Origin: a virus
Reading direction: 5' to 3' (one strand)
Virus record (IMG/VR): IMGVR_UViG_3300045988_049685
Location: 1 to 42,501 of that record
DNA length: 42,501 bases
In this document: piece by piece, positions 1 through 42,501 of the stretch
Position numbering within the stretch: position 1 is the first letter of the stretch
How the letters are laid out: every line of letters starts with the position of its first letter
Position numbers and translations under genes: made by a program
Notes under the pieces: generated by a model
What the model was told of the DNA's origin: nothing
What the model saw: the letters and a program-made list of their open reading frames with translations, nothing else
Databases searched by the model: none

Positions 1-316
1 CTGGGCGGAGTTCCCGGAACTGCCAATCTGGGCGGAGTTCCCGGAACTGCCAATCTGGGCGGAGTTCCCGGAACTGCCAATCCGGGCGTAGTCCCCGGAA
101 CTGCCAATCTGGGCGGAGTTCCCGGAACTGCCAATCCGGGCGTAGTGCCCGGAACTGCCAATCCGGGCGTAGTCCCCGGAACTGCCAATCCGGGCGTAGT
201 GCCCGGAACTGCCAATCTGGGCGGAGTTCCCGGAACTGCCAATCTGGGCGTAGTTCCCGGAACTGCCAATCTGGGCGGAGTTCCCGGAACTGCCAATCTG
301 GGCGGAGTCCCCGGAA
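1..316 (-). repeat. 27-bp coding tandem repeat array (11 full units plus a degenerate 12th)
   Basis: Head-to-tail units ctgggcggagttcccggaactgccaat with three variant forms start exactly at nt 1. The minus-strand frame reads IGSSG(N/D/H)(S/Y)A(Q/R) per unit. Confidence 0.95.
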
Positions 317-11124: not shown

Positions 11125-12161
11125 AACTCCCGGCTATAATACAACTCCCGTCAGGGTCATGGCGAACAAGAATCTATATCGACGGCCGCACAGTATCCAT
11201 AACGAAAGACACCTACGACGAATGCGCGGCGGAATACCTCGCCATGAAGCACGGGGTCATTGAAGCGAAAGCCGCCCCCATGAAGCACGGGGTGCCGCTG
11301 GGGGATGCTCTCGACAAATACATTTCGACCCGGAAGGGGTTCAAGTCGCCGTCAACGATTTATGCGTATGAATCCTACCGCAAGCAGCGCTTCCAAAGCA
11401 TGATGGTGGCTGACGTGTACACCACCACGGACGAACAGTGGCAAGCCGCCATCCGCAGGGAAGCAAAATCACTGTCCCCGAAATATATCAAAAACGTGTG
11501 GATGCTGATCTCCGCCGCGATATTCGAGGAAACCGGACGCAGACCGCGGGTGACCCTGCCGGAAAAGGAACACAACGAAAAGCCGTACCTTGACCCGGAT
11601 CAGATACCGGTGTTCCTGCAAGCCATAAAAGGGGAATCGATAGAAATTGCCGCCCTGCTGGAATTATCCAGCTTGCGCAGGTCGGAGATGCTGGCGCTGA
11701 CGTGGGACAAGGTCGATTTCAAGAACGAAATAATATATGTCCACGGGGCAAGAGTGGCCGGGGACGGCGGCAAGCTGGTTCACAAGAAGCAGAACAAAAA
11801 CGATTCCTCCCGGCGCACGGTGCCGATTATTGAGCCGCTGATGGAAGCACTAAAGGCAGTTGATAGCAAGGAAGGCTATGTCGTCAACCTGACCGGCGGG
11901 TGGATATGCACAAGGATAAACGAGATTTGTTCCGCCAACGGCCTGCCGAAAGTCGGGAACCACGGATTGCGGCACAGCTTCGCATCTCTGGCTTATCACC
12001 TCCAGATACCGGAAAAGATAGCAATGGAAATTGGCGGGTGGGCAGATGACGGGACGATGCACAAAATATATACACATCTGGCACAGAAAGACATTGCAAA
12101 ACGGGCGCAGGATTTCCGGAACTTCTTTGTGTCAAATGCGGATAAAAAAGCACAAATTTGA
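11094..12161 (+). CDS. int: tyrosine-type site-specific integrase
   Basis: Start at ATG 11094 (MGRKKKEPG...). Catalytic motifs RRSEMLALTWDKVDF, HGLRHSFASLAY and GGWADDGTMHKIYTH. The start overlaps the upstream gene by 31 nt. Confidence 0.93.
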   Translation: MGRKKKEPGVKLPAIIQLPSGSWRTRIYIDGRTVSITKDTYDECAAEYLAMKHGVIEAKAAPMKHGVPLGDALDKYISTRKGFKSPSTIYAYESYRKQRFQSMMVADVYTTTDEQWQAAIRREAKSLSPKYIKNVWMLISAAIFEETGRRPRVTLPEKEHNEKPYLDPDQIPVFLQAIKGESIEIAALLELSSLRRSEMLALTWDKVDFKNEIIYVHGARVAGDGGKLVHKKQNKNDSSRRTVPIIEPLMEALKAVDSKEGYVVNLTGGWICTRINEICSANGLPKVGNHGLRHSFASLAYHLQIPEKIAMEIGGWADDGTMHKIYTHLAQKDIAKRAQDFRNFFVSNADKKAQI

Positions 12162-12223
12162 CACGCCATTTGACACAGATTTTGAAAAATCGTTGTATAC
12201 CAACGCTTTTTGCCGTTTTAATC

Positions 12224-12251
12224 GCGGGTTCGATTCCCGTACGGGTCACCA
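12224..12251 (+). other. attP core candidate: tRNA 3'-end mimic (T-arm + acceptor 3' strand + CCA)
   Basis: GCGGG TTCGATT CCCGT ACGGGTC A CCA. There is no matching 5' acceptor, D arm or anticodon arm upstream, so it is a fragment and not a gene. Confidence 0.7.
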
Positions 12252-12260
12252 TGCAGAAAA

Positions 12261-12291
12261 AGCCCTAGAAATCAATTCTAGGGCTTTTTTA
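12261..12291 (+). terminator. intrinsic terminator
   Basis: agccctagaa-atcaa-ttctagggct perfect 10-bp stem followed by TTTTTTATT. Confidence 0.8.
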
Positions 12292-12429
12292 TTGCTTTAT
12301 CAGCTATATTCCCACGTTCTCCGAACTATTCTGCGGGAAAATATTACCGCAGATTTTAATATTTTTCTGCGTGCGGTACGTTTTTAGGGCTCAAATTTGA
12401 CACGCCATTTGACGCGAAATTTGCCACGC

Positions 12430-12738
12430 TTACCGCTTGTACATCCCCTGCACCACTCCGACGTTCTCCGCCCGCTCAATATCCCGCTTGTGCAGGTACT
12501 CATAGACGGCCATCATGGCCGCAGGCGGTTCGCCCTTCTGCTTGCGGTATTCCTCGATGTGAGAAACAACGGCCTTGTGCAGGGCGTTCATGTGGTTCAT
12601 TTCCTCCCCGCTCAGCCTGTAAAACAGGTCTGCCAGCTCCGGGTCGTCGTGCTTGTATTCCACGGCCAGCTCTGCGTAGGTGTGCGCGTCTTCCAGCTCG
12701 TCCTCAATGTGCTCCATCAGCAGTTTAATTTCTTTCAT
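12430..12738 (-). CDS. hypothetical helical protein with two ExxH motifs (half-ferritin-like guess)
   Basis: 102 aa. Motifs ELEDAH and GEEMNH in predicted helices. ATGA overlap with the upstream gene. Confidence 0.6.
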   Translation of the reverse strand: MKEIKLLMEHIEDELEDAHTYAELAVEYKHDDPELADLFYRLSGEEMNHMNALHKAVVSHIEEYRKQKGEPPAAMMAVYEYLHKRDIERAENVGVVQGMYKR

Positions 12739-13085
12739 CTGATGCCCTCCTGAATGTACGCATACAGCGTATCAATATCTTGCTTTCCCAGCTTGAGCGT
12801 AAGCCCGATTCCGGGGATTTTCACGGGCAGCGCCTCTGTCCCCATGTATGGCTTTGCGGCGTTGTACAGGGCGTCAACGTCCACAGTGCCATGCTCCATA
12901 TCGTAAACGCCCAGCGCCTTTACCATGGGATGATCTGCGTACTGGGCAATAATCTTCGGGAAATTTGCGGCAAGCAGCCCCCCAGCCCCGGCAACCAGAA
13001 CTCTGTCCCAGCCGGAAAGACTTGGAGCAATGCTTCTGTCAATGAATCTCGCAAGCCCTGCCTGCACGTTTTCCATAGGAATCAT
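12735..13085 (-). CDS. hypothetical protein
   Basis: 116-aa ORF with AAGGAGG upstream of ATG 13085; no family recognised. Confidence 0.6.
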   Translation of the reverse strand: MIPMENVQAGLARFIDRSIAPSLSGWDRVLVAGAGGLLAANFPKIIAQYADHPMVKALGVYDMEHGTVDVDALYNAAKPYMGTEALPVKIPGIGLTLKLGKQDIDTLYAYIQEGIR

Positions 13086-31261: not shown

Positions 31262-32908
31262 CTAAAATGGTCTCCTGAAAACCTCTATAACCGCCCCGTT
31301 TAAGCTTTGGGCAAACTCAGCAAACATAGCCATTCCGTCTGGAACGTCATCGTGCTTATTCTTTCCCGCTACAGTGTAGGAACATAGCATATCCATCATC
31401 CTGCCGTAATCCGTGTTCCGCTTATACTTGCTTTCATCCAGAAACAGGCAGTGTTCCTTCACCCACGCCGAATTTACAATGATCTTTGTCTCTTTATTTG
31501 CCGTGGTGAACTTCGTCGTGATGTTTGTGATGCCACCCAGTTTCTTCACTTCGTCCTGAATCTTTTCAGCGATCCGGCGGCCAGCGGAGTTACTTTCAAA
31601 CCGGCACATTTTCACCTTGTCCCGCACCAGAATTTCAGACAGTCTTGCATCCACTGTGTCAGGAAGCCCATTGTCGCAGATACAGTCCCCAATATAGTAG
31701 TCCTGCCCATATACATATCCAACCGGCAGAAAGGCGTAGTCAGCGCCCTTGTCCTTGGTATCGCACACGCCGATAATGGCATCTGGTTTCTCTGCTGGCA
31801 GCTCAAAAAACCGCCGCAGTTCGTCAGGACGGTAGACAAGCCCCTCGCGTTCAATGGGTTGATTCTGATACAGCGCTTTCCAACTGACGCTATCCATAAT
31901 ATCCCGCTGTTCCCGGTAGAACTTGGTGGAGAACCCCACGCCAAACTCATAATCAAAATTGCTTTCGTCGTCCTCGTTCATGGCAGGAATCCGAACGAAT
32001 TTCGCCCTGGGATTGTTCTCATATTCCCGTTCCAGCCGCCCAATCACATCATGAACGCTCCACCGGGTAGCAATATGAAGCTCTTTGCATTTGTCACCGA
32101 TTTTACGCTGCCGCAGGTCGGTGGTGTAAGTCTCCCACAGCTTGTCCAGCCGCTCTTTGGATAGCGCGACCTCAATACCAGATACCAGATCGTCGCAATA
32201 CAGCAGGTTCGCCGCCCGGTACAGACCGGCATTGCCCGTTCCTATGGAGGTAAATTCCAGCGTCTCAAATCGCTGCCGCTTATCAAGGTCAATTCGGCAG
32301 TCCTTTGCGTTGGTGCTGGACACCTGAACGGCAGGGAAGACATCATGCCATAGATATTCCCCCTTTGCGTCAAACAGCCGCAGACATTCGTCATACACGC
32401 CCCGCACAAAGGAATTGGAGTGGCTGCCCGTCAGATTCGGGTTGTTTGGGTCGCGGCCGGCAATCCAGGTCAGCAGGAAGATTGCAAGCGTGGTCTTTCC
32501 TACGCCGGGGGGCAAGCTAACCGCCAGCAAATCCAACTTGTCATCCCCGCACAGCGCTTGCAGCGCGTCCACCACGGGCTTTAGCTGCTTCTTCCGTGGC
32601 TGATAAAACCGCTTTTTCGCCTGCCTGTCCAGCTCCATATAGGTGAGATAGCTGTCAAAGTCATATGGAGCCTCAAACAATAGCCCCCGCCGCCAAAGGC
32701 TGTAGAATCCCTCCACCTGAGACATGGGCACTTTATCCATCATTCGGTCGCACATATCCTTCAATTGTTTATTCGCTCGATGTGCCGCCGTGAAATCAGT
32801 CTCAGCCCATGTCTGGCACAGGGAAAACAGGTCTTCATATGCCCCGATATCACCCGGCCTGTTCTCGATAGCCCCCAGAATGGAGGTTGACAATTTCTCA
32901 TAATCCAT
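31262..32908 (-). CDS. terL: terminase large subunit
   Basis: 548 aa. Walker A SLPPGVGKTT, Walker-B-like LLYCDDLVSG, C-terminal nuclease-type acidic motifs. Confidence 0.92.
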   Translation of the reverse strand: MDYEKLSTSILGAIENRPGDIGAYEDLFSLCQTWAETDFTAAHRANKQLKDMCDRMMDKVPMSQVEGFYSLWRRGLLFEAPYDFDSYLTYMELDRQAKKRFYQPRKKQLKPVVDALQALCGDDKLDLLAVSLPPGVGKTTLAIFLLTWIAGRDPNNPNLTGSHSNSFVRGVYDECLRLFDAKGEYLWHDVFPAVQVSSTNAKDCRIDLDKRQRFETLEFTSIGTGNAGLYRAANLLYCDDLVSGIEVALSKERLDKLWETYTTDLRQRKIGDKCKELHIATRWSVHDVIGRLEREYENNPRAKFVRIPAMNEDDESNFDYEFGVGFSTKFYREQRDIMDSVSWKALYQNQPIEREGLVYRPDELRRFFELPAEKPDAIIGVCDTKDKGADYAFLPVGYVYGQDYYIGDCICDNGLPDTVDARLSEILVRDKVKMCRFESNSAGRRIAEKIQDEVKKLGGITNITTKFTTANKETKIIVNSAWVKEHCLFLDESKYKRNTDYGRMMDMLCSYTVAGKNKHDDVPDGMAMFAEFAQSLNGAVIEVFRRPF

Positions 32909-33411: not shown

Positions 33412-33768
33412 TTACTTTTTCACATCCTTGCATACACCTGAATACCCGCAGTCAGAACAAGTGATGACCGTCTGATATGTCTGCGGAACTAAACCGTTTA
33501 CGATTGCACCGATAACCAGCCCGAGTAAAGCTCCCACGATCAAACCGATAATTCCCAGGAACATCAGCCCAAACCCGCCGAATGTCATCACAAGTGGCAC
33601 TGTCAGCTTTGGCTTATACTCTTTCGGTGTTGCCGTGACATTCGCGGAGTTGCACTTAGGGCATCTAACACCGCTCCCTACATCCTCCGTAACCGCCGTT
33701 CCGCACTTGGAACAGAACTTTGCTCCATCGGGTAATTCGCTTCCGCATTTGCTGCATACTCTCTGCAT
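33412..33768 (-). CDS. double zinc-ribbon membrane protein
   Basis: 118 aa. CSKCG..CSKCG and CPKC..CSDCG ribbons flank two TM helices. Confidence 0.7.
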   Translation of the reverse strand: MQRVCSKCGSELPDGAKFCSKCGTAVTEDVGSGVRCPKCNSANVTATPKEYKPKLTVPLVMTFGGFGLMFLGIIGLIVGALLGLVIGAIVNGLVPQTYQTVITCSDCGYSGVCKDVKK

Positions 33769-33772
33769 TTGG

Positions 33773-34141
33773 TTATTCCTCCTTCAAAATCGGCTCATGC
33801 TGCCCGGGAACTGCATCCCAGGTCATTCTCTTTCCGCACAGGGCATAATTAAGATATTGCGTTACCATTTCCGGCGACCTTGCCATTTGGAAGCACAGCA
33901 TTTCCTTCACTCGCCGCATCATGTCATTTTCGCCAGGCACAATCGTAATGCCCTCATTAACCAAATGAACCGTGCAATTCATTTTCTGGCAAGCCTGTAA
34001 AAATGGATAATACTCCGTTTCTCCACCCTCAAACATGAAAATGGATGGTATCTCTACTGTCCCGTCCCGCACAATTACATTGAAGTGTGGAACACTTTTA
34101 TACCGCTCATTTAGTTCGGCATCAGATATTCTTTTCCCCAT
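33773..34141 (-). CDS. hypothetical protein
   Basis: 122-aa ORF tightly packed after the recombinase; no family recognised. Confidence 0.6.
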   Translation of the reverse strand: MGKRISDAELNERYKSVPHFNVIVRDGTVEIPSIFMFEGGETEYYPFLQACQKMNCTVHLVNEGITIVPGENDMMRRVKEMLCFQMARSPEMVTQYLNYALCGKRMTWDAVPGQHEPILKEE

Positions 34142-34150
34142 TTTGCAATC

Positions 34151-34909
34151 TCACCCCTTTAGAATTGCTTCGTGCGTATTCTCACACATTTCTTTGCCGT
34201 ACCGGTAATTCCCCCGGTAGGTATCCTCGTTGCCCAGAATCGTCTGGACTGCGGAGTGCTTGAACTCCTTGCCCTTCTTGCTCCGATATCCTAGCTCATT
34301 CAGCTTGTCTGCGATTCCTTGCAATGTACAGCCCTGGTTTCTCAACTCGAAAACCTTTTTTACAATCTCCGCCTCTTCCGGCACCACTGCAAGATGCCCG
34401 TTTTCAGCCCGATACCCAAGTGGAGGCTTCCCCCCGGCATAGCCGCCCTCTCTGGCTGTAGCATACCGCCCCATGGTAGTTCTTAGGGCGATATTGTCGC
34501 TCTCCAACTGATTAAAGGAAGATAGAATGCCAATCATGGCACGTCCCCACGGGGTAGTGGTATCAAGCGTTTCATTCAGGCTTATGAGGTCAACTCCGTT
34601 TGCCAACAAATCGTCCTCTACAATCGCTAGAGTATCCCGTTGCTTTCTGGAAAGCCGATCTAGCTTAAAAATAACAATAGCTTCGATTTTACCCGCCCGA
34701 ATATCCCGAAGCATTTCTTGAAGCCCCGGACGGTTTGTGTTTCTGCCGGTATACCCGTTGTCCTCATAGGTTTTCACATATTTCCAGCCCTTGCTTTCAA
34801 TGCAGGCTTTCGCCATTCGCTCCTGCTCAGGCAAAGACACTTTCCCGTCCTCTCCCTGAGCCTCTGTAGATACTCTGGTATAGACACATGCCTTTTTCAT
34901 CTCGTACAT
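34151..34909 (-). CDS. serine recombinase, short form (resolvase catalytic domain + recombinase domain, no zinc-ribbon/coiled-coil tail)
   Basis: Start at ATG 34909, downstream of the mapped promoter. ACVYTRVSTEAQ catalytic motif. GGKPPLGYRAENGHLAVVPEEAEIVKKVF recombinase-domain motif. Ends right after HEAIL at 253 aa. Confidence 0.88.
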   Translation of the reverse strand: MYEMKKACVYTRVSTEAQGEDGKVSLPEQERMAKACIESKGWKYVKTYEDNGYTGRNTNRPGLQEMLRDIRAGKIEAIVIFKLDRLSRKQRDTLAIVEDDLLANGVDLISLNETLDTTTPWGRAMIGILSSFNQLESDNIALRTTMGRYATAREGGYAGGKPPLGYRAENGHLAVVPEEAEIVKKVFELRNQGCTLQGIADKLNELGYRSKKGKEFKHSAVQTILGNEDTYRGNYRYGKEMCENTHEAILKG

Positions 34910-34940
34910 TTCTGCTTCCCCCGTACATCTTGTTTTCTGT

Positions 34941-34969
34941 ATAATATCAGATTTACAATTATTTGTCAA
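34941..34969 (-). promoter_or_regulatory. consensus sigma70 promoter TTGACA-17-TATTAT (minus arm of the island)
   Basis: Minus strand TTGACA (fwd 34964-34969), 17-nt spacer, TATTAT (fwd 34941-34946). Confidence 0.7.
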
Positions 34970-35192
34970 CTGTAATAATGCACAAATAAGAACTGCCTTT
35001 TTTGTTTTTGCCGGAATTTCTGAAAAGGGGGGGCTTCTTGATTTCGCGGGTATTTATGGGGTTAACCCCCGCCGAATTAGGCCGGCCATATCCCCCGCCC
35101 CCGGTGCTTTCGCTGCTGCTTCTCCCGTGATGGGGCGGGAAGCGCCGGATTTGATAATTTACATTTTTTCTTGAATTTCTGTAAAATAATGC

Positions 35193-35220
35193 TTGACATT
35201 TACGAAAATATCTATATAAT
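35193..35220 (+). promoter_or_regulatory. consensus sigma70 promoter TTGACA-16-TATAAT (plus arm of the island)
   Basis: TTGACA 35193-35198, TATAAT 35215-35220. Confidence 0.7.
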
Positions 35221-35348
35221 AGTAAATGTAAACAAGAGCAAAACAAAAGCGCCCCCGCAATCCTACCAAGACCAACGGGAGCGCACCACACAAGGGGGCG
35301 CCGCTATTATAGCACGGCCTCCGCAGAATTACAAGGAGGAATATTATA

Positions 35349-35984
35349 ATGATTATCAACGGGAAGAACTATCTATTACTAGAAAAGCGCGGCTGCAATT
35401 TTAATGGCGGCGTCCCGGTCACCACTAAAAGCGACGTTGGAAATTATCGTGTATGCACGATGGGCGAGACGGTCCCCGGCAAAGACGGCCGAAATTATTT
35501 CCTTGAATTCTCCCTTTGGCAGAACCGCAGCCAGCCGCGCTATACCAATAAGCGAACCGGCGCACCACTGAAACACCCCGTGCGAGAGATCATCAACCCC
35601 ATTGGACTACACATCGACACGCAATACACCGACGAAAGCGGCCAATCTTGGCGCAATCTCAACTTGGAACAGCGCATCCACAAACAGAACCCCAGTTACA
35701 CCACGGCCGAGATTCTTGCCATTGCAAACGAGATCAGCGCGGAACACTACGACGGCATTAAATGGGTTTGTTCTTTCTGCGAGACCGTCGAGCATGGCGC
35801 GAACTTTACGCCGGCCGCCCTGATTTCCACCTATGCGAAAAGAAACCGCATGGAAATAGAATCCCGGGTCGGGGCTCTCTGCCTCAGGCTTTACGCCGGG
35901 ACATATAAATATTTGGCCTACGATGTCCGCAGCTTTGGCAGCCGCGATAATGTAACCGTGATTCTTGAGGAGGTGGAAGCATGA
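35349..35984 (+). CDS. hypothetical protein (family seen in Firmicutes mobile elements, function unknown)
   Basis: 211 aa with AAGGAGG 8 nt upstream; no catalytic motif recognised. Confidence 0.7.
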   Translation: MIINGKNYLLLEKRGCNFNGGVPVTTKSDVGNYRVCTMGETVPGKDGRNYFLEFSLWQNRSQPRYTNKRTGAPLKHPVREIINPIGLHIDTQYTDESGQSWRNLNLEQRIHKQNPSYTTAEILAIANEISAEHYDGIKWVCSFCETVEHGANFTPAALISTYAKRNRMEIESRVGALCLRLYAGTYKYLAYDVRSFGSRDNVTVILEEVEA

Positions 35985-36247
35985 ACATTAACGCAATCAT
36001 GGCCGAACTAGCCCAGTATATCCGGATGCAGGAGGAAGCCGCCGCAATGGTGGAGAGCCTGAAAGATCAGCTGAAAGCCCAGATGCAGGCCGCAGGCGTG
36101 GACACGCTGGCCGGGGACGAACACAAGGCCACTTATAAGGCTGTCACAAGTTGCCGAGTGGACACGACCGCCCTAAAAAAAGACCTGCCGGAAATAGCCG
36201 CCCGGTACACAAAAACAACGGAGACCCGCAGATTTACGTTTGCATAA
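35981..36247 (+). CDS. hypothetical coiled-coil protein
   Basis: 88 aa with ATGA overlap. The HKATYKAVTSCRVDTTALKKDLPEIAARYTKTTETRRFTF C-terminal motif recalls small proteins of Firmicutes conjugative elements. Confidence 0.65.
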   Translation: MNINAIMAELAQYIRMQEEAAAMVESLKDQLKAQMQAAGVDTLAGDEHKATYKAVTSCRVDTTALKKDLPEIAARYTKTTETRRFTFA

Positions 36248-36259
36248 GGAGGCAAAACC

Positions 36260-36415
36260 ATGAAAACATACATTTTTACAGCAAGCAAAACCGGGGAAAA
36301 CGTGGATTTTGAAACAACAATTCAGGCAAAAGCGGAACCCGACTTTTGGGACTGCTACGAGTTAGCAGCCTCCCACGGGTGCGAGTTCTGGACTTGTGAG
36401 GAGGTCGGCGCGTGA
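36260..36415 (+). CDS. hypothetical 51-aa acidic Cys-containing protein (below the ORF-track cutoff)
   Basis: MKTYIFTASKTGENVDFETTIQAKAEPDFWDCYELAASHGCEFWTCEEVGA, with AAGGAGG 7 nt upstream. Confidence 0.55.
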   Translation: MKTYIFTASKTGENVDFETTIQAKAEPDFWDCYELAASHGCEFWTCEEVGA

Positions 36416-36480
36416 TTATCCTTGCAATTCTGTTTTTTCCGCTGCTGGTTCTGGCGGAGCTGCTGAAAATAAGCAAATAA
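36412..36480 (+). CDS. 22-aa hydrophobic peptide (micro-ORF P2)
   Basis: GTG start overlaps the upstream TGA (GTGA), with GAGGAGG 7 nt upstream. (M)IILAILFFPLLVLAELLKISK. Paralog of P1. Confidence 0.5.
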   Translation: MIILAILFFPLLVLAELLKISK

Positions 36481-36486
36481 TGTGCA

Positions 36487-36551
36487 AGCCGTCCGAGCAT
36501 TGCCCGGGCGGCTTTCTCTTTGCCCTGCCAACGTGGCGGGGCTTTTCTCTT
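36487..36551 (+). terminator. two tandem terminator-like hairpins ending the plus arm
   Basis: agccgtccg/cgggcggct + TTCTCTTT, then gccctgcc/ggcggggc + TTTTCTCTT. Confidence 0.6.
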
Positions 36552-36911
36552 GCTATGCCCTGTAAGGCTCTCATCAGCTTTTTAAGCGGCTTTTATTCTG
36601 GCAATATAAATTAACGTCAAGCATCGTTCCCGCCTTAAAATGGGCACGTATGGACGCCACGCAATGCCGCACGGTATTTTATGCAGCGCGTGGGGCGCTC
36701 AGCGCCCGCCATTGCCGCCGCTTTCCGTGCCGGATACCAGATCCCGCCGCAACTTTTCGCCCGTCCGACCGCTTTCTGTGCCCCCCTGCGTTCTGCCCGC
36801 TGCTACAGGGTAAAAGCACCGCCACACAGGCCGCACCGGCTCCGATCAGATTTCCCGCCATGTTTTTGCGTCAGGGTTGAAAATCCCCGCAAGGCTCCCA
36901 GCTCGTGAGCC

Positions 36912-37075
36912 ATAGTCGCAAAGTCGCAGCCGAAAATTTCCAATTCATAGTCGCACCATAGTCGTTTTGAAAGTCGCTGGCCATAGTCGCAGAAAGTCGC
37001 CCCGAAAGTCGCAAGACCTCCGGGGCGTTTTCATAGTCGCTATAGTCGCTGGGTCAAAGTCGCTGTTATAGTCGC
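36912..37075 (+). repeat. array of 12 same-orientation octamers A(T/A)AGTCG(C/T)
   Basis: Copies start at 36912, 36920, 36947, 36958, 36970, 36983, 36993, 37005, 37033, 37042, 37056 and 37068. Most spacings are 8-14 bp. Confidence 0.9.
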
Positions 37076-37284
37076 TCGAGCTTCCGACCGCACACTGGGC
37101 AAAAATTCCAAGTCACCGTCATTTGCCGCCCGCTATGGGCAACCACGGTGAATGTTTCCGGTTTGTTCACACACTCTCTGCAAAAGTCGCAGGCGGGTTT
37201 CCTAGCGCCGCCCTCCATCAGCATCCGGATTTGGGCAACCTCTGTGCACATTCGTTCGATGGCGTATTCCGTCTTTTCTCTCAT
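37066..37284 (-). CDS. hypothetical zinc-ribbon protein coupled to terS
   Basis: 72 aa with ATGA overlap with the terS stop. CDFCREC...CPVCG. Confidence 0.65.
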   Translation of the reverse strand: MREKTEYAIERMCTEVAQIRMLMEGGARKPACDFCRECVNKPETFTVVAHSGRQMTVTWNFCPVCGRKLERL

Positions 37285-37829
37285 TCCGTTCCACCCTCCG
37301 CGTCAATGATAGTCGCACCGCTACCGCGAACATCTTCCAGATACTTCTGCCGCAGCTTCTCCGGGTCTGCCCGCTCTCCAAGCGGATTATCCGGCTTTAA
37401 GACCACTTCCTGCTGGTCTGTGTAGTTCATATTGTTTTTCATCAAAAAAATTCCGGCAACGGGGTTAATCTTGCCATTTTGCATGAAATCTTCCATCTGA
37501 GCGTTGATTAAATCCCGTGCTTTTTTGATAGTGTCACGCACAGAGTCGCTTAAATCCCTGCTTCTAGGCTGATTATTGCACCATCTCCACATGGTCATTC
37601 TGTCCACCCCGAACGCCAAAGCGAATCCTGCGAAAGTCGGCTTCATATCATTCTCAGCGCACAGGCTGAAATAGTCGAAGCACCGTTTCTGTACCGCCTC
37701 CAAGCTGTCCATGTCCGGCTTGTCCCACTTCATGATAGTCATGGAATGGCTAATGTACTTGGTATTATCTCCTGGTTCCAGATCAGGAACTTGATAAGGC
37801 TTCTTTTTGAGTTTATTGCTTTCCGCCAA
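37281..37829 (-). CDS. terS: terminase small subunit
   Basis: 182 aa. HTH KPTFAGFALAFGVDRMTMWRWCN, typical of Firmicutes phage TerS. First gene after an AT-rich promoter-like region. Confidence 0.8.
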   Translation of the reverse strand: MAESNKLKKKPYQVPDLEPGDNTKYISHSMTIMKWDKPDMDSLEAVQKRCFDYFSLCAENDMKPTFAGFALAFGVDRMTMWRWCNNQPRSRDLSDSVRDTIKKARDLINAQMEDFMQNGKINPVAGIFLMKNNMNYTDQQEVVLKPDNPLGERADPEKLRQKYLEDVRGSGATIIDAEGGTE

Positions 37830-37879
37830 AGTCGTTGTCCTCCTTTACTATCTTAGTAGATTTACTTATATTCTTTACC

Positions 37880-37926
37880 ATAACACATACACACTACAAG
37901 ATATGAGATTTATATATATTATATAT
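37880..37926. repeat. AT-rich intergenic element, copy A (upstream of terS)
   Basis: ataacacatacacactacaagatatgagatttatatatattatatat is about 80% identical to 39040-39080. It contains the inverted repeat caagatat/atatcttg. Confidence 0.7.
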
Positions 37927-37958
37927 TTATTTAATATATCTTGTTAATAAGAATCAGC

Positions 37959-38627
37959 TCATTCTTTGACTTCCGTTGGAAACTCGACTGTGATTTTAAC
38001 CACGTTCCCACCGTAGAACGAGACTGATTTGGTCGTTCCTATGAGTTCTTTTGCCGCAGCTCCGTCATCGCTCTTGGTAGTAAACGCAAATATGCGATCT
38101 TTCCCAATTAAGCCCAAAAATTCATTAGCGTTTATGCGTACACCCTCACGGAACTTTATACTGAAAGAATATACTCTAGGCCCTCCTCTCCCATCGAGTG
38201 ATGGTTTTTCACCGTCCTGCTCCGAGGCGCCATTTCCCTTGAGCCTAACGCCCTCCGGTGCTTGTAAAAGTTCATAGTATCCGTTTCTACGCCCTTGCGT
38301 TATCCTCAGCCTATCTTCCGCTCCAAGGCCAAGGCACCGGCTGAATGCGTGGCTGTCCAAATCCGGCTCTGCTGGCGCGGCCTTAAACTCCCACCGCTCA
38401 GAGCCGTCATGCTCCGCTCTCTCAAGCCACCAATCGTCACCGGCCACAATCAGGTCCCCGGGTATTTCTGCAATGCCGTATCCATTGTCGTACTCAAAGT
38501 TTGCTTGTTTTGCAAAGTCGTCCCAGCTGCACTTCGCATTGGCAGACTCTCTGCCAACCCACCGCACATCCGCAGGGGTTTTGCCGTTTTCTTTGAGAAT
38601 ATTCAAGGTTTCATTCAAAAGATTCAT
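37959..38627 (-). CDS. hypothetical protein
   Basis: 222-aa ORF; no family recognised. Confidence 0.65.
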   Translation of the reverse strand: MNLLNETLNILKENGKTPADVRWVGRESANAKCSWDDFAKQANFEYDNGYGIAEIPGDLIVAGDDWWLERAEHDGSERWEFKAAPAEPDLDSHAFSRCLGLGAEDRLRITQGRRNGYYELLQAPEGVRLKGNGASEQDGEKPSLDGRGGPRVYSFSIKFREGVRINANEFLGLIGKDRIFAFTTKSDDGAAAKELIGTTKSVSFYGGNVVKITVEFPTEVKE

Positions 38628-38628
38628 A

Positions 38629-38997
38629 CTATCCCCTCCATTTCCCGATCTTATAGTCGTACTCTTTCAGGCAATCGTACCGCTCCCGGAACGGGAAGAA
38701 CGTCTCACCGTTTCCATTATACGCTTCCATGAGAGCCTTGTCCAGCTGTTCTTGATACCAATCCGCTTCATCGTTTGGCAGGAACGCCGGGCGGAAATAC
38801 TGCATGATTTCGTTGGTTTTCTTCAGGACTTTCAGGATTCTTGCGCCGCTAAATGTGTCCTTTCCCATGGTCTCCGGGTCTCGCAAGGCCAGTGAAATAT
38901 AGTCGCACATTTGCTGTGTCCCGAGTTCCCAACCATCGTTGAAGCACTGCCGCTGAACAGCCTCCTGCTTGGCAAGATACGCATTTTGTTTTGCCAT
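38629..38997 (-). CDS. hypothetical protein
   Basis: Start moved to ATG 38997 (GAAAGGAAAAG upstream). 122 aa. Confidence 0.6.
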   Translation of the reverse strand: MAKQNAYLAKQEAVQRQCFNDGWELGTQQMCDYISLALRDPETMGKDTFSGARILKVLKKTNEIMQYFRPAFLPNDEADWYQEQLDKALMEAYNGNGETFFPFRERYDCLKEYDYKIGKWRG

Positions 38998-39023
38998 ATG
39001 CTTTTCCTTTCTTTTCTTAGTAA

Positions 39024-39092
39024 ATCCCTGTATAGAACTATAACAACATACACACAAGATATAGAATTATATTATATATACTATACAGGGAT
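39024..39092. repeat. AT-rich intergenic element copy B bracketed by a perfect 12-bp inverted repeat
   Basis: atccctgtatag at 39024-39035 and ctatacagggat at 39081-39092. The 45-nt spacer is copy B of the AT-rich element. Confidence 0.75.
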
Positions 39093-39096
39093 AAAG

Positions 39097-39279
39097 CTAT
39101 AATATTAAATTTCGTCTCCTGTTTTTCGTTTTCTCCCTCCTTTCGGTACAATCCTTCCCAGGCGGGCAAGGCCGCTTTTTCCCGTGGACGAATATGTAAT
39201 TGCAGCACCGGCTGCCTTCGCAATATCCGAAGAAATACCGGCACCCGACGCAATACTTCCTGCCGTCCCTGTACTCCAC
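39097..39279 (-). CDS. hypothetical Cys-rich 60-aa protein (GTG start)
   Basis: YCVGCRYFFGYCEGSRCCNYIFVHGKKRPCPPGKDC. It has higher GC3 than the overlapping 39105-39281 frame. The choice of frame is uncertain. Confidence 0.4.
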   Translation of the reverse strand: MEYRDGRKYCVGCRYFFGYCEGSRCCNYIFVHGKKRPCPPGKDCTERREKTKNRRRNLIL

Positions 39280-39297
39280 ATTACCGCCCCGTTTCCA

Positions 39298-39963
39298 TCA
39301 CAGGATAATCCGCTGCTGTGCTGTATATTCTGCCCACACCGCCTCCTGTTTTTCAAAATATTCCTTGTCAATTTCCGTTCCTACAAAATCCAGATCGAAA
39401 TCATACGCCGCCCGCCGGGAGCTACCGCTACCAAGATGAGTATCCAGAATCTTGAATCCCGGCTTCGTGTAGTGGGCGTATATCCATCGGTATAATTCTT
39501 CCGGCTTTTGAGTTGGGTGAAATCTGCCCGCTATGCCCGCAGATGACATTTTGATAACTTTCGCGTTATCGTTGAAACTGCACCAAGCATATTCCGCCAT
39601 TGCCATAGAAAAGTTTTCCGGTATATTTGTTTTCAGCCAGACCAAAAAGCATCTGTTGGGTGGGAGCTGGAAATAGTTCCCGCCCCATATGATTTGCTCC
39701 TTGCTCACCCGGAAAAGCTCATTGAAATAGTCCTCGCCGGGGGCATAGTCCCAGCTCGTGATTTTTTTCCGAACTTTGCCGCCCACTTTCCTCCCGTCCG
39801 GGCAATCTTGCAGGTACCTGTCAAAGCGTCCACCGAAGCGGGTGCCGCTGACGAACTCCCCCCCCCCGCTTCCATACGGCGGATCGACTACAGCCAAGTC
39901 GAAATATTTATCCGGATACTCCCGCATGATTTCCATGCAATCAGCGTTAAGCGCAATATTCAC
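39298..39963 (-). CDS. DNA methyltransferase (beta-class N6A/N4C, DPPY)
   Basis: Motif IV AVVDPPYG precedes FHPTQKPEELYRWIY and motif I ILDTHLGSGSS. Confidence 0.9.
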   Translation of the reverse strand: MNIALNADCMEIMREYPDKYFDLAVVDPPYGSGGGEFVSGTRFGGRFDRYLQDCPDGRKVGGKVRKKITSWDYAPGEDYFNELFRVSKEQIIWGGNYFQLPPNRCFLVWLKTNIPENFSMAMAEYAWCSFNDNAKVIKMSSAGIAGRFHPTQKPEELYRWIYAHYTKPGFKILDTHLGSGSSRRAAYDFDLDFVGTEIDKEYFEKQEAVWAEYTAQQRIIL

Positions 39964-40256
39964 ATCGTGCCACCTCTTTCCGCTTTCCTGTCACGGTATC
40001 TCCTTTTGGCGGCTCTCTGAGCGTGGGCTTTTTGGCACTCCAAACTGCAATAGATTTTCTGCTTGATCTTGCCCTGCGTAAATTCCTTCCCGCACTGTGG
40101 GCAGATTTTGGAAATGCCCTGCGGGGCTTCCACGTCCTCCACATCGGCCTGAATCGGCGGGTGGTATCCGTGCATTGCCATGTACTTCCCGTATCTCGTC
40201 CCAGCCTTCTGGGCGGCTATGGAGCACAGGGTGAGATAGTCCGGCTTCTTGCTCAT
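39960..40256 (-). CDS. hypothetical zinc-ribbon protein
   Basis: 98 aa. CPQCG...CSLEC. ATGA overlap with the methyltransferase start. Confidence 0.65.
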   Translation of the reverse strand: MSKKPDYLTLCSIAAQKAGTRYGKYMAMHGYHPPIQADVEDVEAPQGISKICPQCGKEFTQGKIKQKIYCSLECQKAHAQRAAKRRYRDRKAERGGTM

Positions 40257-40414
40257 TGCTGTTGTGCCTCCCGTGGCAGTTTGATTTCTGCCCCATCGTG
40301 CAGATCGTCGCTATCCAGTGCATAGGTCACCATCGTCAGCCCGCTGCGTGTTTCCACTACGCCGTTCAGGAAACTGCAGCCCATACCATCGGGAATATCA
40401 AGTGTGATTTTCAT
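40253..40414 (-). CDS. hypothetical 53-aa protein (below the ORF-track cutoff)
   Basis: MKITLDIPDGMGCSFLNGVVETRSGLTMVTYALDSDDLHDGAEIKLPREAQQQ. GGAGAAA upstream. ATGA overlap with the next gene. Confidence 0.5.
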   Translation of the reverse strand: MKITLDIPDGMGCSFLNGVVETRSGLTMVTYALDSDDLHDGAEIKLPREAQQQ

Positions 40415-40787
40415 TCGATTTTCTCCTTTCTCCGTAGCTGCAAAAGTCGTTCATTTCCACGCAAACAGCCTCGCCCTTGTAGCCTCTGACATTTGGGTAA
40501 GGCTCGGTATGCAGCATACACATAGGGTTTTCGTCCCCCTGCCGGTGGATACAGTCTTTGCACCGAACTATGTGGAGCGTTTCAATGAACCCGTCTGCGA
40601 AACCAGCATCATACCCCGCCTTGTACTGCCCCCTATCATATTTCAGAGCTTTCAGAAGTTCTTCCCGATTCACCCGGATACCAATTTTTATAATTGCCTG
40701 TACTACGGCATCGCCGATAGCATCCTGAAAGTCGCTTAAATTCAAGCTGGCAGGTGGGGTGTAGCCGTTAAGTTCTTCCATTTTCAT
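40398..40787 (-). CDS. hypothetical protein with C-terminal RCKDCI...DFCSYGERR module
   Basis: Start moved to ATG 40787 (AAAGGAGG upstream). The C-terminal Cys module is paralogous to the next gene. Confidence 0.65.
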   Translation of the reverse strand: MKMEELNGYTPPASLNLSDFQDAIGDAVVQAIIKIGIRVNREELLKALKYDRGQYKAGYDAGFADGFIETLHIVRCKDCIHRQGDENPMCMLHTEPYPNVRGYKGEAVCVEMNDFCSYGERRKSNENHT

Positions 40788-41082
40788 CCTCCTTTCGCTC
40801 CCCATAACTGCAAAAATCATCGCCGTCTACCTCGTTAGGGGACATGCCCTGCTCATATTGCCAATGATAGCAATACCCAAATGGCGTTCCTCCTTTGTTG
40901 GTGGGGTGCTTGCCTATTTCCTCAAATGCAATGCAGTCCCGGCACCTTACCACGGGGACGGCATTTCTCCCCCGTTCCAACGCCTCCATGCCCATTCGGC
41001 AGGCTTCGTTCACCTCGTCCATGCCGTCGTAATGCTCCCGGTGTCCCGGGTCAAGAATTTCAATTGCTCGGTCAATCGTCAT
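40768..41082 (-). CDS. hypothetical protein with C-terminal RCRDCI...DFCSYGERK module
   Basis: 104-aa ORF that shares its Cys module with 40398-40787. Confidence 0.65.
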   Translation of the reverse strand: MTIDRAIEILDPGHREHYDGMDEVNEACRMGMEALERGRNAVPVVRCRDCIAFEEIGKHPTNKGGTPFGYCYHWQYEQGMSPNEVDGDDFCSYGERKEDENGRT

Positions 41083-42159: not shown

Positions 42160-42501
42160 GGCTTTACCTCCGCAAACTCCCCGTTTTTCAGCGTGTACGG
42201 TGTATCCGCCTTGATTTTTTCGCCATCGACATACTCCGTTTTCACACATACCGGAACGTATCGTTGCTTTGCTCCATCGTATTTCCACTCTGCAAGTGTA
42301 ATCCAGCAGCCAATTGGCGCTTTTACCACAGAGCCATGTCCGGCGCAGCAAATCACGGAATCGTTTCCAGTGCAGTTAATCTGGGCGGAGTTCCCGGAAC
42401 TGCCAATCTGGGCGGAGTTCCCGGAACTGCCAATCCGGGCGTAGTCCCCGGAACTGCCAATCTGGGCGGAGTTCCCGGAACTGCCAATCTGGGCGGAGTT
42501 C
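42156..42501 (-). CDS. C-terminal part of the repeat-containing protein (continues from nt 1 across the window junction)
   Basis: The frame is open from 42501 through the 27-bp units into INCTGNDSVICCAGHGSVVKAPIGCWITLAEWKYDGAKQRYVPVCVKTEYVDGEKIKADTPYTLKNGEFAEVKP, ending at TGA 42156-42158. Confidence 0.85.
   Translation of the reverse strand, partial: NSAQIGSSGNSAQIGSSGDYARIGSSGNSAQIGSSGNSAQINCTGNDSVICCAGHGSVVKAPIGCWITLAEWKYDGAKQRYVPVCVKTEYVDGEKIKADTPYTLKNGEFAEVKP
42381..42501 (-). repeat. 27-bp coding tandem repeat (4 full units + 13 nt), same family and codon phase as nt 1-316
   Basis: Units start at 42381, 42408, 42435, 42462 and 42489. nt 42462-42501 are identical to nt 1-40. Confidence 0.95.

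What the first reader, a model, noticed from the sequence alone, without database searches (positions are those of the whole stretch)
36912..37075. Twelve same-orientation A(T/A)AGTCG(C/T) octamers in 164 bp directly downstream of the terS operon
ATAGTCGC / AAAGTCGC copies start at 36912, 36920, 36947, 36958, 36970, 36983, 36993, 37005, 37033, 37042, 37056 and 37068. All are on the plus strand and mostly 8-14 bp apart, roughly helical phasing.

The last copy overlaps the stop of the 72-aa gene coupled to terS. Additional single copies in the same orientation are scattered through the next 3.7 kb: 37309, 37632, 37671, 37828, 38514, 38653, 38899, 40443 and 40728. By eye I found only two elsewhere (5092, 15224).

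A dense phased array beside terS is what a pac site or TerS-wrapping site looks like. Alternatives are a centromere-like or partition site, binding sites for a late regulator, or the recombinase target of the adjacent island.
Basis: partly seen in the sequence, partly recalled or inferred. Interest (0 to 1): 0.65.

Follow-up and report, generated by a model that had tools for sequence, protein, structure and literature searches.

The report
Phased octamer array beside phage terS
A gut-bacterial prophage carries twelve same-direction copies of an 8-base word just after its small-terminase gene; the same array sits in that place in well over a hundred related phages, so it is most likely the DNA signal the terminase reads to start packaging the genome.

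Summary
There are 12 exact AWAGTCGY copies in 36912-37075. All 20 copies in the window are on the + strand, against about 4 expected on both strands.

On the terS coding strand the word reads (G/A)CGACT(A/T)T. The array follows terS (a P22 gp3-family small terminase, PF16677) and an optional 72-aa zinc-ribbon gene.

The array tracks terS. It is kept in relatives that lack the zinc-ribbon gene, the serine recombinase or the other island genes. A blind DNA-pattern scan found 89 of 120 hits next to a TerS homologue (22-100% identical). In 88 of those 89 the array is on the terS strand and starts -68 to +373 nt from the end of the TerS match.

Spacing peaks at 11, 21-23 and 33-34 bp, which fits one face of the DNA helix. 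The median is 8 copies in the main cluster.

Extra copies lie only upstream of the array, always in the same orientation, and fade out over 4-6 kb. Many sit next to ribosome-binding sites.

The word is not enriched in host DNA, which argues against a Chi-like signal.

Best reading: a multivalent TerS recognition (pac) site. This is inferred, not shown. The one-sided polarity is unexplained.

The parts
36912..37075 (-). Array of 12 octamers. It reads (G/A)CGACT(A/T)T on the - strand, which is the terS coding strand, and AWAGTCGY on the + strand.
   Evidence: Exact matches. Conserved as 5-12 copies in 62 terS relatives. Copy number differs (8, 9 or 12) between phages with 93-99% identical TerS.
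36999..37026 (-). Hairpin inside the array: 12-bp stem GCCCCGGAGGUC / GACUUUCGGGGC with loop UUGC. One octamer forms the loop and 3' arm.
   Evidence: Found by folding. The three G-U pairs exist only in the - strand RNA (A-C mismatches on +; read). Compensatory change in L043. The U-tail is weak here and T-richer in L040 and L048.
37066..37284 (-). 72-aa zinc-ribbon ORF between terS and the array. It is optional.
   Evidence: Weak zinc-ribbon hits only. Absent from L019-like, L020, L027, L031 and other loci, which still carry the array.
37281..37829 (-). terS, small terminase of the P22 gp3 family (TTG start).
   Evidence: PF16677 at 41.7 bits against a cut-off of 29.4; phrog_606. AlphaFold model with best PDB match P22 gp3 nonamer 3p9a, probability 0.96, TM 0.57. 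1294 homologous protein clusters; all 120 listed carry PF16677 or are fragments.
37183..37190 (-). Single octamer inside the zinc-ribbon ORF (codons C-D-F).
37309..37316 (-). Single octamer at the terS 3' end, 25 nt upstream of the zinc-ribbon ORF start and just 5' of its Shine-Dalgarno sequence.
   Evidence: Conserved in relatives at -36 or -33 from the terS stop.
37828..37835 (-). Octamer bridging the Shine-Dalgarno sequence and the terS start codon (AAGGAGGacaACGACTTTG).
   Evidence: The same layout (ACGACT|ATG) occurs in the L073, L123 and L169 clades.
38514..38521 (-). Single octamer inside the 222-aa ORF.
38653..38660 (-). Single octamer 26 nt upstream of the 222-aa ORF start, 5' of its Shine-Dalgarno sequence.
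38899..38906 (-). Single octamer inside the 142-aa ORF.
   Evidence: This position is kept in p142 variants, while the second p142 site moves.
40443..40450 (-). Single octamer 29 nt upstream of a 53-aa ORF start, 5' of its Shine-Dalgarno sequence.
40728..40735 (-). Single octamer inside the 140-aa ORF.
37918..37947 (-). Promoter-like site TTAACA-18-TATAAT upstream of terS, in a (TA)n stretch.
   Evidence: Consensus scan, 11 of 12 matches. Pattern match only.
36416..36911 (.). Conserved G+C-rich non-coding stretch that follows the array.
   Evidence: 80-90% column conservation over about 600 nt in 16 loci whose island genes differ. No Rfam match.
31262..32908 (-). terL, large terminase, separated from terS and the array by a 3.6-kb mosaic island.
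   Evidence: phrog_38 at 1e-59. Every relative has 3-5 kb between the array and p171-terL.

Best explanation
The octamer (G/A)CGACT(A/T)T is the recognition word of this phage's small terminase, and the dense array is the packaging-initiation (pac) site.

TerS of the P22 gp3 family forms a ring of about nine subunits. Each subunit would read one short asymmetric word weakly. Eight to twelve words in one orientation, spaced in multiples of about 11 bp, would let one ring or a few rings bind by avidity with the DNA running along the ring surface. TerL would then be recruited to make the first cut nearby, and packaging would proceed in one direction.

The isolated copies upstream, several of them next to ribosome-binding sites including that of terS, would be weaker secondary sites. 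They may feed back on expression of the terS operon or act on something that moves along the DNA.

Shown: the array, its statistics, its phasing, its linkage to terS, and the TerS family assignment. Inferred: that TerS binds the word, that packaging starts here, and any role of the scattered copies.
For: 1. The array is real and far beyond chance.

2. In 62 terS relatives the array stays with terS while the zinc-ribbon gene, the serine recombinase, the other island genes and the upstream genes come and go.

3. A scan of viral contigs for three spaced GCGACTWT words, blind to proteins, gave 120 loci. 89 have a TerS homologue (22-100% identical). In 88 of those 89 the array is on the terS strand and starts -68 to +373 nt from the end of the TerS match. 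The other 31 are uniform tandem or coding repeats, or loci cut at an end.

4. A further clade, reached only through the protein database (P0036, 63% identical), also has the array after terS.

5. Spacing in 30 representative arrays peaks at 11 bp, then 21-23, 33-34 and 42-43 bp. Pairwise-distance periodicity is strongest at 10.5-11.75 bp. 30 of 37 gaps of 20-24 bp hold no decayed copy, so the phasing is not a remnant of a tandem repeat.

6. The median is 8 copies spanning about 126 bp. P22 gp3 is a nonamer (3p9a).

7. TerS here passes the Pfam threshold for PF16677, and its model best matches P22 gp3.

8. Clades differ in the variable position. Some use only CGACTAT and others only CGACTTT. 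L061 (TerS 50% identical) has eight GCAGAAMG words, all on one strand, in the same place.

9. Established knowledge: pac sites of P22, Sf6 and SPP1 lie in or next to terS, and adjacent HTH motifs on TerS rings are about one DNA turn apart (PMC4737164, PMC9611059).
Against: No binding or terminus data exist.

The predicted recognition helix of the HTH varies widely among clades that share the same word. P22-family TerS binds its pac DNA weakly or undetectably in vitro (PMC9611059).

Isolated copies up to 4-6 kb upstream are all in one orientation and none lies downstream. Binding by looping should not depend on orientation.

In four clades the whole array lies between the terS stop codon and a canonical terminator, so it is transcribed. 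Copies are enriched just 5' of ribosome-binding sites: 26 of 94 against a null of 17%, p = 0.007.

The L061 covariation case is a single locus. Cultured distant TerS relatives have no such array.
Confidence: 0.55

Rival explanations
1. Regulatory operator or roadblock sites. The octamers are asymmetric binding sites, for TerS or another phage protein, that block RNA polymerase or ribosomes in an orientation-dependent way, as mycobacteriophage stoperators do. They would tune or silence the operon that ends with terS. The dense array would reinforce termination before the island.
For: All copies share the direction of transcription. Four of the 8 scattered copies in the window lie 0-29 nt 5' of a start codon. 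Across relatives the figure is 26 of 94 unique sites against a 17% null. The layout octamer-SD-octamer-ATG recurs at terS and at other genes. The array abuts or contains the operon terminator. Stoperators are asymmetric, oriented with transcription and bound by a monomeric HTH protein (PMC9283540).
Against: Sites are confined to about 6 kb rather than spread over the genome. Twelve phased sites in 164 bp is far more than a roadblock needs. No regulator gene is conserved with the array; only terS is. This rival is compatible with TerS binding, so it may be an added role rather than an alternative.
Confidence: 0.15
2. RNA-level element. GCGACUWU repeats in the terS 3' UTR and near ribosome-binding sites are bound by an RNA-binding protein, or act as a sponge or attenuator controlling readthrough of the hairpin.
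For: The orientation always matches the transcript. In four clades the arrays lie between the stop codon and the terminator. The hairpin's G-U pairs exist only in the - strand RNA, and one octamer sits inside it. Copies flank Shine-Dalgarno sequences.
Against: The 10.5-11.75 bp periodicity with harmonics fits duplex DNA. In the window 7 of 12 copies lie 3' of the hairpin, so they would not be transcribed if it terminates. No Rfam family matches. No RNA-binding protein is linked to the array.
Confidence: 0.1
3. Chi-like protection signal. The octamer is the host AddAB/RecBCD recognition word, stacked next to the packaging cut to protect the unpackaged DNA end.
For: The orientation is absolute and the gradient lies on only one side of a likely DNA end. 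The word is conserved across very divergent TerS.
Against: The strict octamer occurs 3 times in 56 kb of host-side DNA against about 6 expected from composition. A Chi-like word should be several-fold enriched. Helical phasing is not expected for a signal read on single strands. Irregular arrays were found only beside this TerS family.
Confidence: 0.04
4. Replication iterons or a partition centromere.
For: Direct repeats about one helical turn apart resemble iterons and parC-type centromeres (recalled knowledge).
Against: No initiator or partition gene lies next to the array. A separate 27-bp tandem array of about 16 copies sits beside a helicase-loader-like gene at the window ends and is the better origin candidate. 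The phage integrates through a tyrosine integrase. The array follows terS in phages with unrelated backbones.
Confidence: 0.03
5. Target or boundary of the adjacent mobile island: a serine-recombinase site or a recombination hotspot that drives turnover of the island.
For: The array marks one edge of a 3-5 kb hypervariable stretch between terS and terL.
Against: Many array-bearing loci have no serine recombinase (for example L002, L003, L006, L019-L021, L036-L038). No inverted or second copy of the array lies at the other edge, since copies beyond +1500 are about zero. A conserved stretch of about 600 nt lies between the array and the variable genes.
Confidence: 0.03

Closest known systems
P22 pac site and gp3 small terminase
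   Same: TerS belongs to the same Pfam family and matches gp3 best in structure. The signal is asymmetric and lies at or next to the terS gene. The P22 pac sequence GAAGATTTATCTGAAGTCGTTA contains AAGTCGT, a 7-of-8 match to AWAGTCGY.
   Different: P22 uses one 22-bp site inside gene 3, about 200 bp before its stop. Here there are 8-12 octamers at and after the stop codon. The P22 match is on the terS coding strand, the opposite orientation to that here. By my estimate it has about a 4% chance of arising at random.
SPP1/SF6 pac (pacL-pacC-pacR) and the DNA-wrapping ('nucleosome') model of TerS
   Same: Several short direct repeats around terS. HTH motifs on a ring about one DNA turn apart, with roughly 100 bp proposed to wrap around it (PMC4737164).
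   Different: In SPP1/SF6 the repeats are few, differ between the two phages, and the DNA-binding domain shows little sequence preference (PMC4737164, PMC9611059). Here a single strongly conserved word is repeated in phase, which would give the wrap its specificity.
Lambda cosB (R1-R3 sites for gpNu1, with R4 beyond cosN)
   Same: Multiple TerS-binding repeats next to the cut site, plus a related element on the far side (recalled knowledge).
   Different: Lambda has three 16-bp sites with an IHF bend, upstream of the TerS gene, and fixed cohesive ends. Here there are many 8-bp sites downstream of terS, and the end type is unknown.
P1 pac site
   Same: Clusters of a short repeated word (seven hexamers in about 160 bp) flanking a cleavage region (recalled knowledge).
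   Different: P1 hexamers carry GATC and are controlled by Dam methylation. The octamer here has no GATC and is strongly asymmetric.
Mycobacteriophage stoperators
   Same: Asymmetric sites, one orientation relative to transcription, often at gene junctions, bound by a monomeric HTH protein (PMC9283540).
   Different: Stoperators are 13-bp sites spread over the whole genome and bound by the immunity repressor. Here the sites are limited to about 6 kb, end in a dense array, and are linked to terS.

Membership tests
Phage pac / TerS recognition site | Lies in or next to the small-terminase gene and is inherited with it | tested here: met
   The array starts -68 to +373 nt from the end of the TerS match in 88 of 89 TerS-bearing pattern hits. 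It is kept while neighbouring genes vary.
Phage pac / TerS recognition site | Bound specifically by TerS | not testable with these tools
   Needs EMSA, footprinting, ChIP or cryo-EM.
Phage pac / TerS recognition site | Packaging series start there (virion DNA ends or submolar pac fragment) | not testable with these tools
   No read data. Contig ends were uninformative: breaks fall in a (TA)n stretch, at an adapter, or near att sites.
Phage pac / TerS recognition site | Recognition word changes with TerS specificity | tested here: inconclusive
   L061 has a different word in the same place, and clades prefer A or T at the variable position. L061 is a single locus, and no TerS residue tracks the change.
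Small terminase, P22 gp3 family (protein) | Pfam PF16677 above the gathering score, and a gp3-like fold | tested here: met
   41.7 bits against 29.4. Top Foldseek hit is 3p9a with probability 0.96 and TM 0.57, but E = 0.44. Model pLDDT is at least 89 over roughly residues 21-110.
Chi (RecBCD/AddAB) sites | Strong over-representation in the host chromosome | tested here: not met
   3 strict copies in 56 kb of host-side DNA against about 6 expected. The sample is small.
Iteron origin | Next to an initiator or replication gene and an A+T-rich unwinding region | tested here: not met
   The neighbours are terS and a zinc-ribbon ORF, and the flank is G+C-rich. The helicase-loader-like gene and the 27-bp repeats are elsewhere.
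Partition centromere (parC/parS type) | Adjacent parA/parM and adaptor genes | tested here: not met
   None among the ORFs annotated around the array and in the early region. Not every ORF of the window was scanned.
Serine-recombinase target (res/att/hix type) | Co-occurs with the recombinase; paired sites | tested here: not met
   The array is present in many loci without the recombinase. There is no second array.
Stoperator-type roadblock sites | Asymmetric sites oriented with transcription, at gene junctions | tested here: met
   Orientation is absolute. Enrichment 5' of start codons is p = 0.007.
Stoperator-type roadblock sites | Genome-wide distribution and binding by the immunity repressor | tested here: not met
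   Copies are confined to about 6 kb. The array follows terS across phages with different backbones. Repressor binding itself was not tested.
Known RNA families (Rfam 15) | Match to a covariance model | tested here: not met
   Only one chance-level hit, E = 0.57, in 36200-38000.

The most novel reading that the evidence does not exclude
The octamers are a polar terminase code. A TerS nonamer reads one short word per HTH on 8-12 phased, same-direction repeats. That would be a sequence-specific version of the wrapping model, which has so far lacked any basis for specificity. The oriented copies that thin out over 4-6 kb on one side only would be read by a machine moving along the DNA, such as the packaging motor nearing the end of a genome unit or RNA polymerase. 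The same word would then set where packaging starts, its direction, and the expression of terS.
Probability: 0.25. Interest if true: 0.8.

Novelty: new variant of a known kind. Interest (0 to 1): 0.62.

Why it matters
How small terminases recognise viral DNA is still unsettled. The wrapping model explains the ring of HTH motifs but not sequence specificity, and pac-type TerS proteins bind their sites weakly in vitro (PMC9611059, PMC4737164).

An abundant family of gut phages has 1294 TerS clusters in public data. In it the presumed site is a clean, phased array of one 8-bp word, with about as many copies as the ring has subunits. That makes the model directly testable by EMSA, cryo-EM, copy-number and spacing mutants.

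The word could also serve as a practical marker. It could be used to locate pac sites, predict packaging direction, and predict lateral or generalised transduction in uncultured Oscillospiraceae prophages. The one-sided, oriented scatter of extra copies has, as far as I know, no counterpart among described pac or cos sites.

Tried and rejected
1. Contig ends as proxies for genome termini. Several IMG/VR contigs start about 90 nt upstream of terS, but the breaks fall in a (TA)n stretch and one contig starts with a Nextera adapter. By hand calculation from the contig ranges, ends of full-length contigs are scattered or lie near the att site. Uninformative.

2. Rfam on 36200-38000: nothing.

3. 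Consensus folding of the conserved stretch after the array: no convincing structure on either strand.

4. Covariation between the TerS recognition helix and the word: no residue tracks it. A search for relatives of the odd locus L061 found only L061 itself.

5. Cultured phages with distant TerS (Maintenon, C. perfringens phiCP39-O and BG3P, Pseudoalteromonas H6/1): no CGACTWT array, so there is no experimental system to borrow.

6. Chi-like hypothesis: tested on 56 kb of host-side DNA and not supported.

7. Avoidance of the word elsewhere in the genome. GCGACT occurs 3 times against 16 by dinucleotide shuffles, but against only 7 by a maximal-order Markov model. This is suggestive only.

8. 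Similarity to the P22 pac sequence (AAGTCGT): opposite orientation and about a 4% chance level, so it is kept only as a lead.

9. Sequence search of the PDB with a TerS profile: only marginal hits, 2ao9 at E = 0.07.

Full report
**Observation**

The whole window has 20 exact copies, all on +. Dinucleotide-preserving shuffles give 3.9 +/- 1.8 on both strands, and no shuffle reaches 20.

Outside 36912-40735 there is no exact copy on either strand. One-mismatch variants are not enriched.

**Local anatomy**

The genes here run on the - strand, where the word reads (G/A)CGACT(A/T)T.

- terS is 37829..37281. It scores 41.7 bits on PF16677 (GP3_package) against a cut-off of 29.4, and matches phrog_606.
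- An AlphaFold model built on 40 homologues has pLDDT of at least 89 over roughly residues 21-110. Its best PDB match is the nonameric P22 gp3, 3p9a, with probability 0.96 and TM 0.57, although the E-value is weak.
- A 72-aa zinc-ribbon ORF (37284..37066) follows terS, and the array follows that ORF. The last array copy on the + strand (the first in the direction of terS) covers the ORF's final three codons and the first base of its stop codon.
- Inside the array is a 12-bp hairpin at 36999-37026. Its three G-U pairs exist only in the - strand RNA. One octamer forms the loop and the 3' arm.
- A promoter-like site lies upstream of terS at 37947-37918.
- terL (32908..31262, phrog_38) is 3.6 kb further on. 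It lies beyond an island that holds a 272-aa serine recombinase and three + strand genes.

**What travels with the array**

A terS-based search of viral contigs gave 62 loci with 50-99% identical TerS.

- Nearly all carry 5-11 copies of the word just after terS, all on the terS strand.
- The zinc-ribbon gene, the recombinase, the other island genes and the upstream genes are present or absent in many combinations. terS plus the array is constant.
- Copy number differs (8, 9 or 12) among phages whose TerS is 93-99% identical. Octamers are kept where spacers diverge.

A second search was blind to proteins. It looked for three GCGACTWT words with 1-16 nt spacers in viral contigs and gave 120 loci.

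- 89 encode a TerS homologue, 22-100% identical to the window's TerS.
- In 88 of those 89 the array is on the terS strand and starts -68 to +373 nt from the end of the TerS match.
- The other 31 are uniform tandem or coding repeats, many from giant viruses, or loci cut at an end.

A further clade reached only through the protein database (P0036, 63% identical) shows the same arrangement. So the array belongs to the terS module. It does not belong to the zinc-ribbon protein, the recombinase or the island.

**Geometry**

In 82 distinct arrays the main cluster has a median of 8 copies (range 3-14) and spans about 126 bp. The extended consensus is (A/T)(G/A)CGACT(A/T)T(G/C).

In 30 representative arrays, neighbour spacing peaks at 11 bp (33 cases), then 8-9 and 12-13, falls at 16-20, and rises again at 21-23, 33-34 and 42-43. 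Pairwise distances are most coherent at a period of 10.5-11.75 bp. 30 of 37 gaps of 20-24 bp hold nothing resembling a decayed copy. The phasing is therefore maintained in its own right and is not the remains of a tandem repeat. It fits a protein bound along one face of duplex DNA.

Over 123 non-identical loci, same-orientation copies per locus fall off as follows (positions relative to the terS stop codon):

| Interval | Copies per locus |
|---|---|
| 0 to +500 | 7.4 |
| -500 to 0 | 1.2 |
| -1000 to -500 | 1.0 |
| -2000 to -1000 | 0.3-0.4 |
| -4000 to -2000 | 0.1-0.2 |
| beyond +1500 | about 0 |

Opposite-orientation copies are about zero everywhere. Three distant clades repeat the pattern independently: L065/L108/L126, L170/L121 and L075.

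Because the structural genes downstream are on the same strand, strand composition does not explain this.

In the window, four of the eight scattered copies lie 0-29 nt 5' of a start codon, just before the Shine-Dalgarno sequence. One of them bridges the Shine-Dalgarno sequence and the TTG start of terS. The same layout (ACGACT|ATG), sometimes with a second copy 5' of the Shine-Dalgarno sequence, recurs at terS and at other genes in other clades. Over unique contexts, 26 of 94 sites lie within 35 nt of a plausible start, against a 17% null (p = 0.007).

In four clades the whole array lies between the terS stop and a canonical intrinsic terminator.

**Rivals**

- *Chi-like word.* It would explain the polarity and the conservation across divergent TerS. 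However, the strict octamer occurs 3 times in 56 kb of host-side DNA recovered around integrated copies and in a related Oscillospiraceae MAG, against about 6 expected. Chi would also not need helical phasing.
- *Iterons or a centromere.* These are unlikely. The window ends in a separate 27-bp tandem array beside a helicase-loader-like gene. The phage integrates at a tRNA 3' end through a tyrosine integrase. No partition gene was seen.
- *Recombinase target.* Excluded by loci that lack the recombinase.
- *RNA-level role.* Not excluded, given the 3' UTR position, the sites beside ribosome-binding sites and the RNA-only hairpin pairs. The duplex-like period argues against it, as does the fact that 7 of 12 window copies lie 3' of the hairpin.
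- *Stoperator-like roadblock or feedback role.* It fits the scattered copies and can coexist with TerS binding (PMC9283540).

**Weak points of the leading explanation**

The predicted recognition helix varies greatly among clades that share the same word. The one locus with a different word, L061, has eight GCAGAAMG copies on one strand at the same place against 1.0 expected, but it has no relatives. Clades do differ in using CGACTAT or CGACTTT, which fits a co-evolving binder but could also reflect the host. Cultured phages with distant TerS lack the array. Nothing here measures binding or termini.

**Comparison with the known**

pac and cos recognition sites made of repeats are known (SPP1 boxes, lambda R sites, P1 hexamers), and pac sites lie in or beside terS. 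In that sense this is a known kind.

It differs in four ways: a single strongly conserved 8-bp word, 8-12 phased same-direction copies, a position at and after the terS stop codon, and a one-sided oriented scatter upstream. P22, the family prototype, uses one 22-bp site inside gene 3. That site contains AAGTCGT, a 7-of-8 match, but in the opposite orientation and at about a 4% chance level.

Reviews state that no current model explains how a TerS ring achieves sequence specificity (PMC9611059, PMC4737164). This array is what a sequence-specific wrap would look like.

**Verdict**

The most likely identity is a multivalent TerS recognition (pac) site (0.55), possibly doubling as a feedback operator. 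It is a new variant of a known kind, and the polarity is unexplained and worth an experiment.

Noticed in passing
window 1-316 and 42378-42501: The window begins and ends inside one 27-bp tandem array (CTGGGCGGAGTTCCCGGAACTGCCAAT, about 16 copies in all). The contig is therefore a circle cut within a repeat. The array sits beside a helicase-loader-like gene (999-1598) and is a candidate iteron origin.
   Followed up: partly
window 33412-36415; L001-L062; L235 3876-6526; L247 7535-10971: terS and terL are never adjacent in this family. A 3-5 kb mosaic island lies between them, holding serine recombinase or resolvase genes, opposite-strand genes, and in phage Maintenon two tRNAs. It looks like a hotspot for accessory genes.
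   Followed up: partly
window 36416-36911: A G+C-rich stretch of about 500 nt with no convincing ORF follows the array. It is 80-90% conserved over about 600 nt in relatives whose island genes differ. There is no Rfam match and no clear consensus fold. It could hold the cleavage region.
   Followed up: partly
window 12160-12740; L239-L246: attP carries a tRNA 3' end (about 12215-12262). The 102-aa ORF at 12430-12738 is also found in phage-free host chromosomes between the GlyRS and CmpB genes, and at both prophage junctions. The attachment homology therefore seems to include a whole host gene.
   Followed up: no
L061 6496-6678: A phage with 50% identical TerS has no CGACTWT word. Instead it has eight GCAGAAMG copies, all on the terS strand, from the terS 3' end to +177, against 1.0 expected in 12.5 kb.
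   Followed up: partly
window 37066-37284; L019, L043, L247: Small zinc-ribbon ORFs inserted between terS and the array come in at least three unrelated versions in the window, L019 and L043. These share the C-terminus CP(V/K)CGRKL and run straight into the first array copy. L247 has a different 65-aa ORF in the same position.
   Followed up: no
L036 1-46: This IMG/VR contig starts with a Nextera adapter (GTCTCGTGGGCTCGGAGATGTGTATAAGAGACAG) fused to phage sequence 40 nt upstream of terS. This is an assembly artefact.
   Followed up: no
L234 (P22 BK000583) 4-25 and 121-130: The P22 pac sequence contains GAAGTCGT, and a second AGTCGC lies about 100 bp downstream in gene 3. They resemble the octamer core but are on the coding strand.
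   Followed up: partly
window 34151-34969: The serine recombinase is only 272 aa and aligns to positions 81-343 of a 651-position integrase profile. It looks like an N-terminal fragment of a large serine recombinase, or a short variant. It is 100% conserved in many relatives.
   Followed up: no
window outside 36880-40800: The hexamer GCGACT/AGTCGC is scarce in the rest of the genome. It occurs 3 times against 16 +/- 4 by dinucleotide shuffles, and against 7 by a maximal-order Markov model (rank 64 of 3924). This may reflect avoidance of stray sites.
   Followed up: partly
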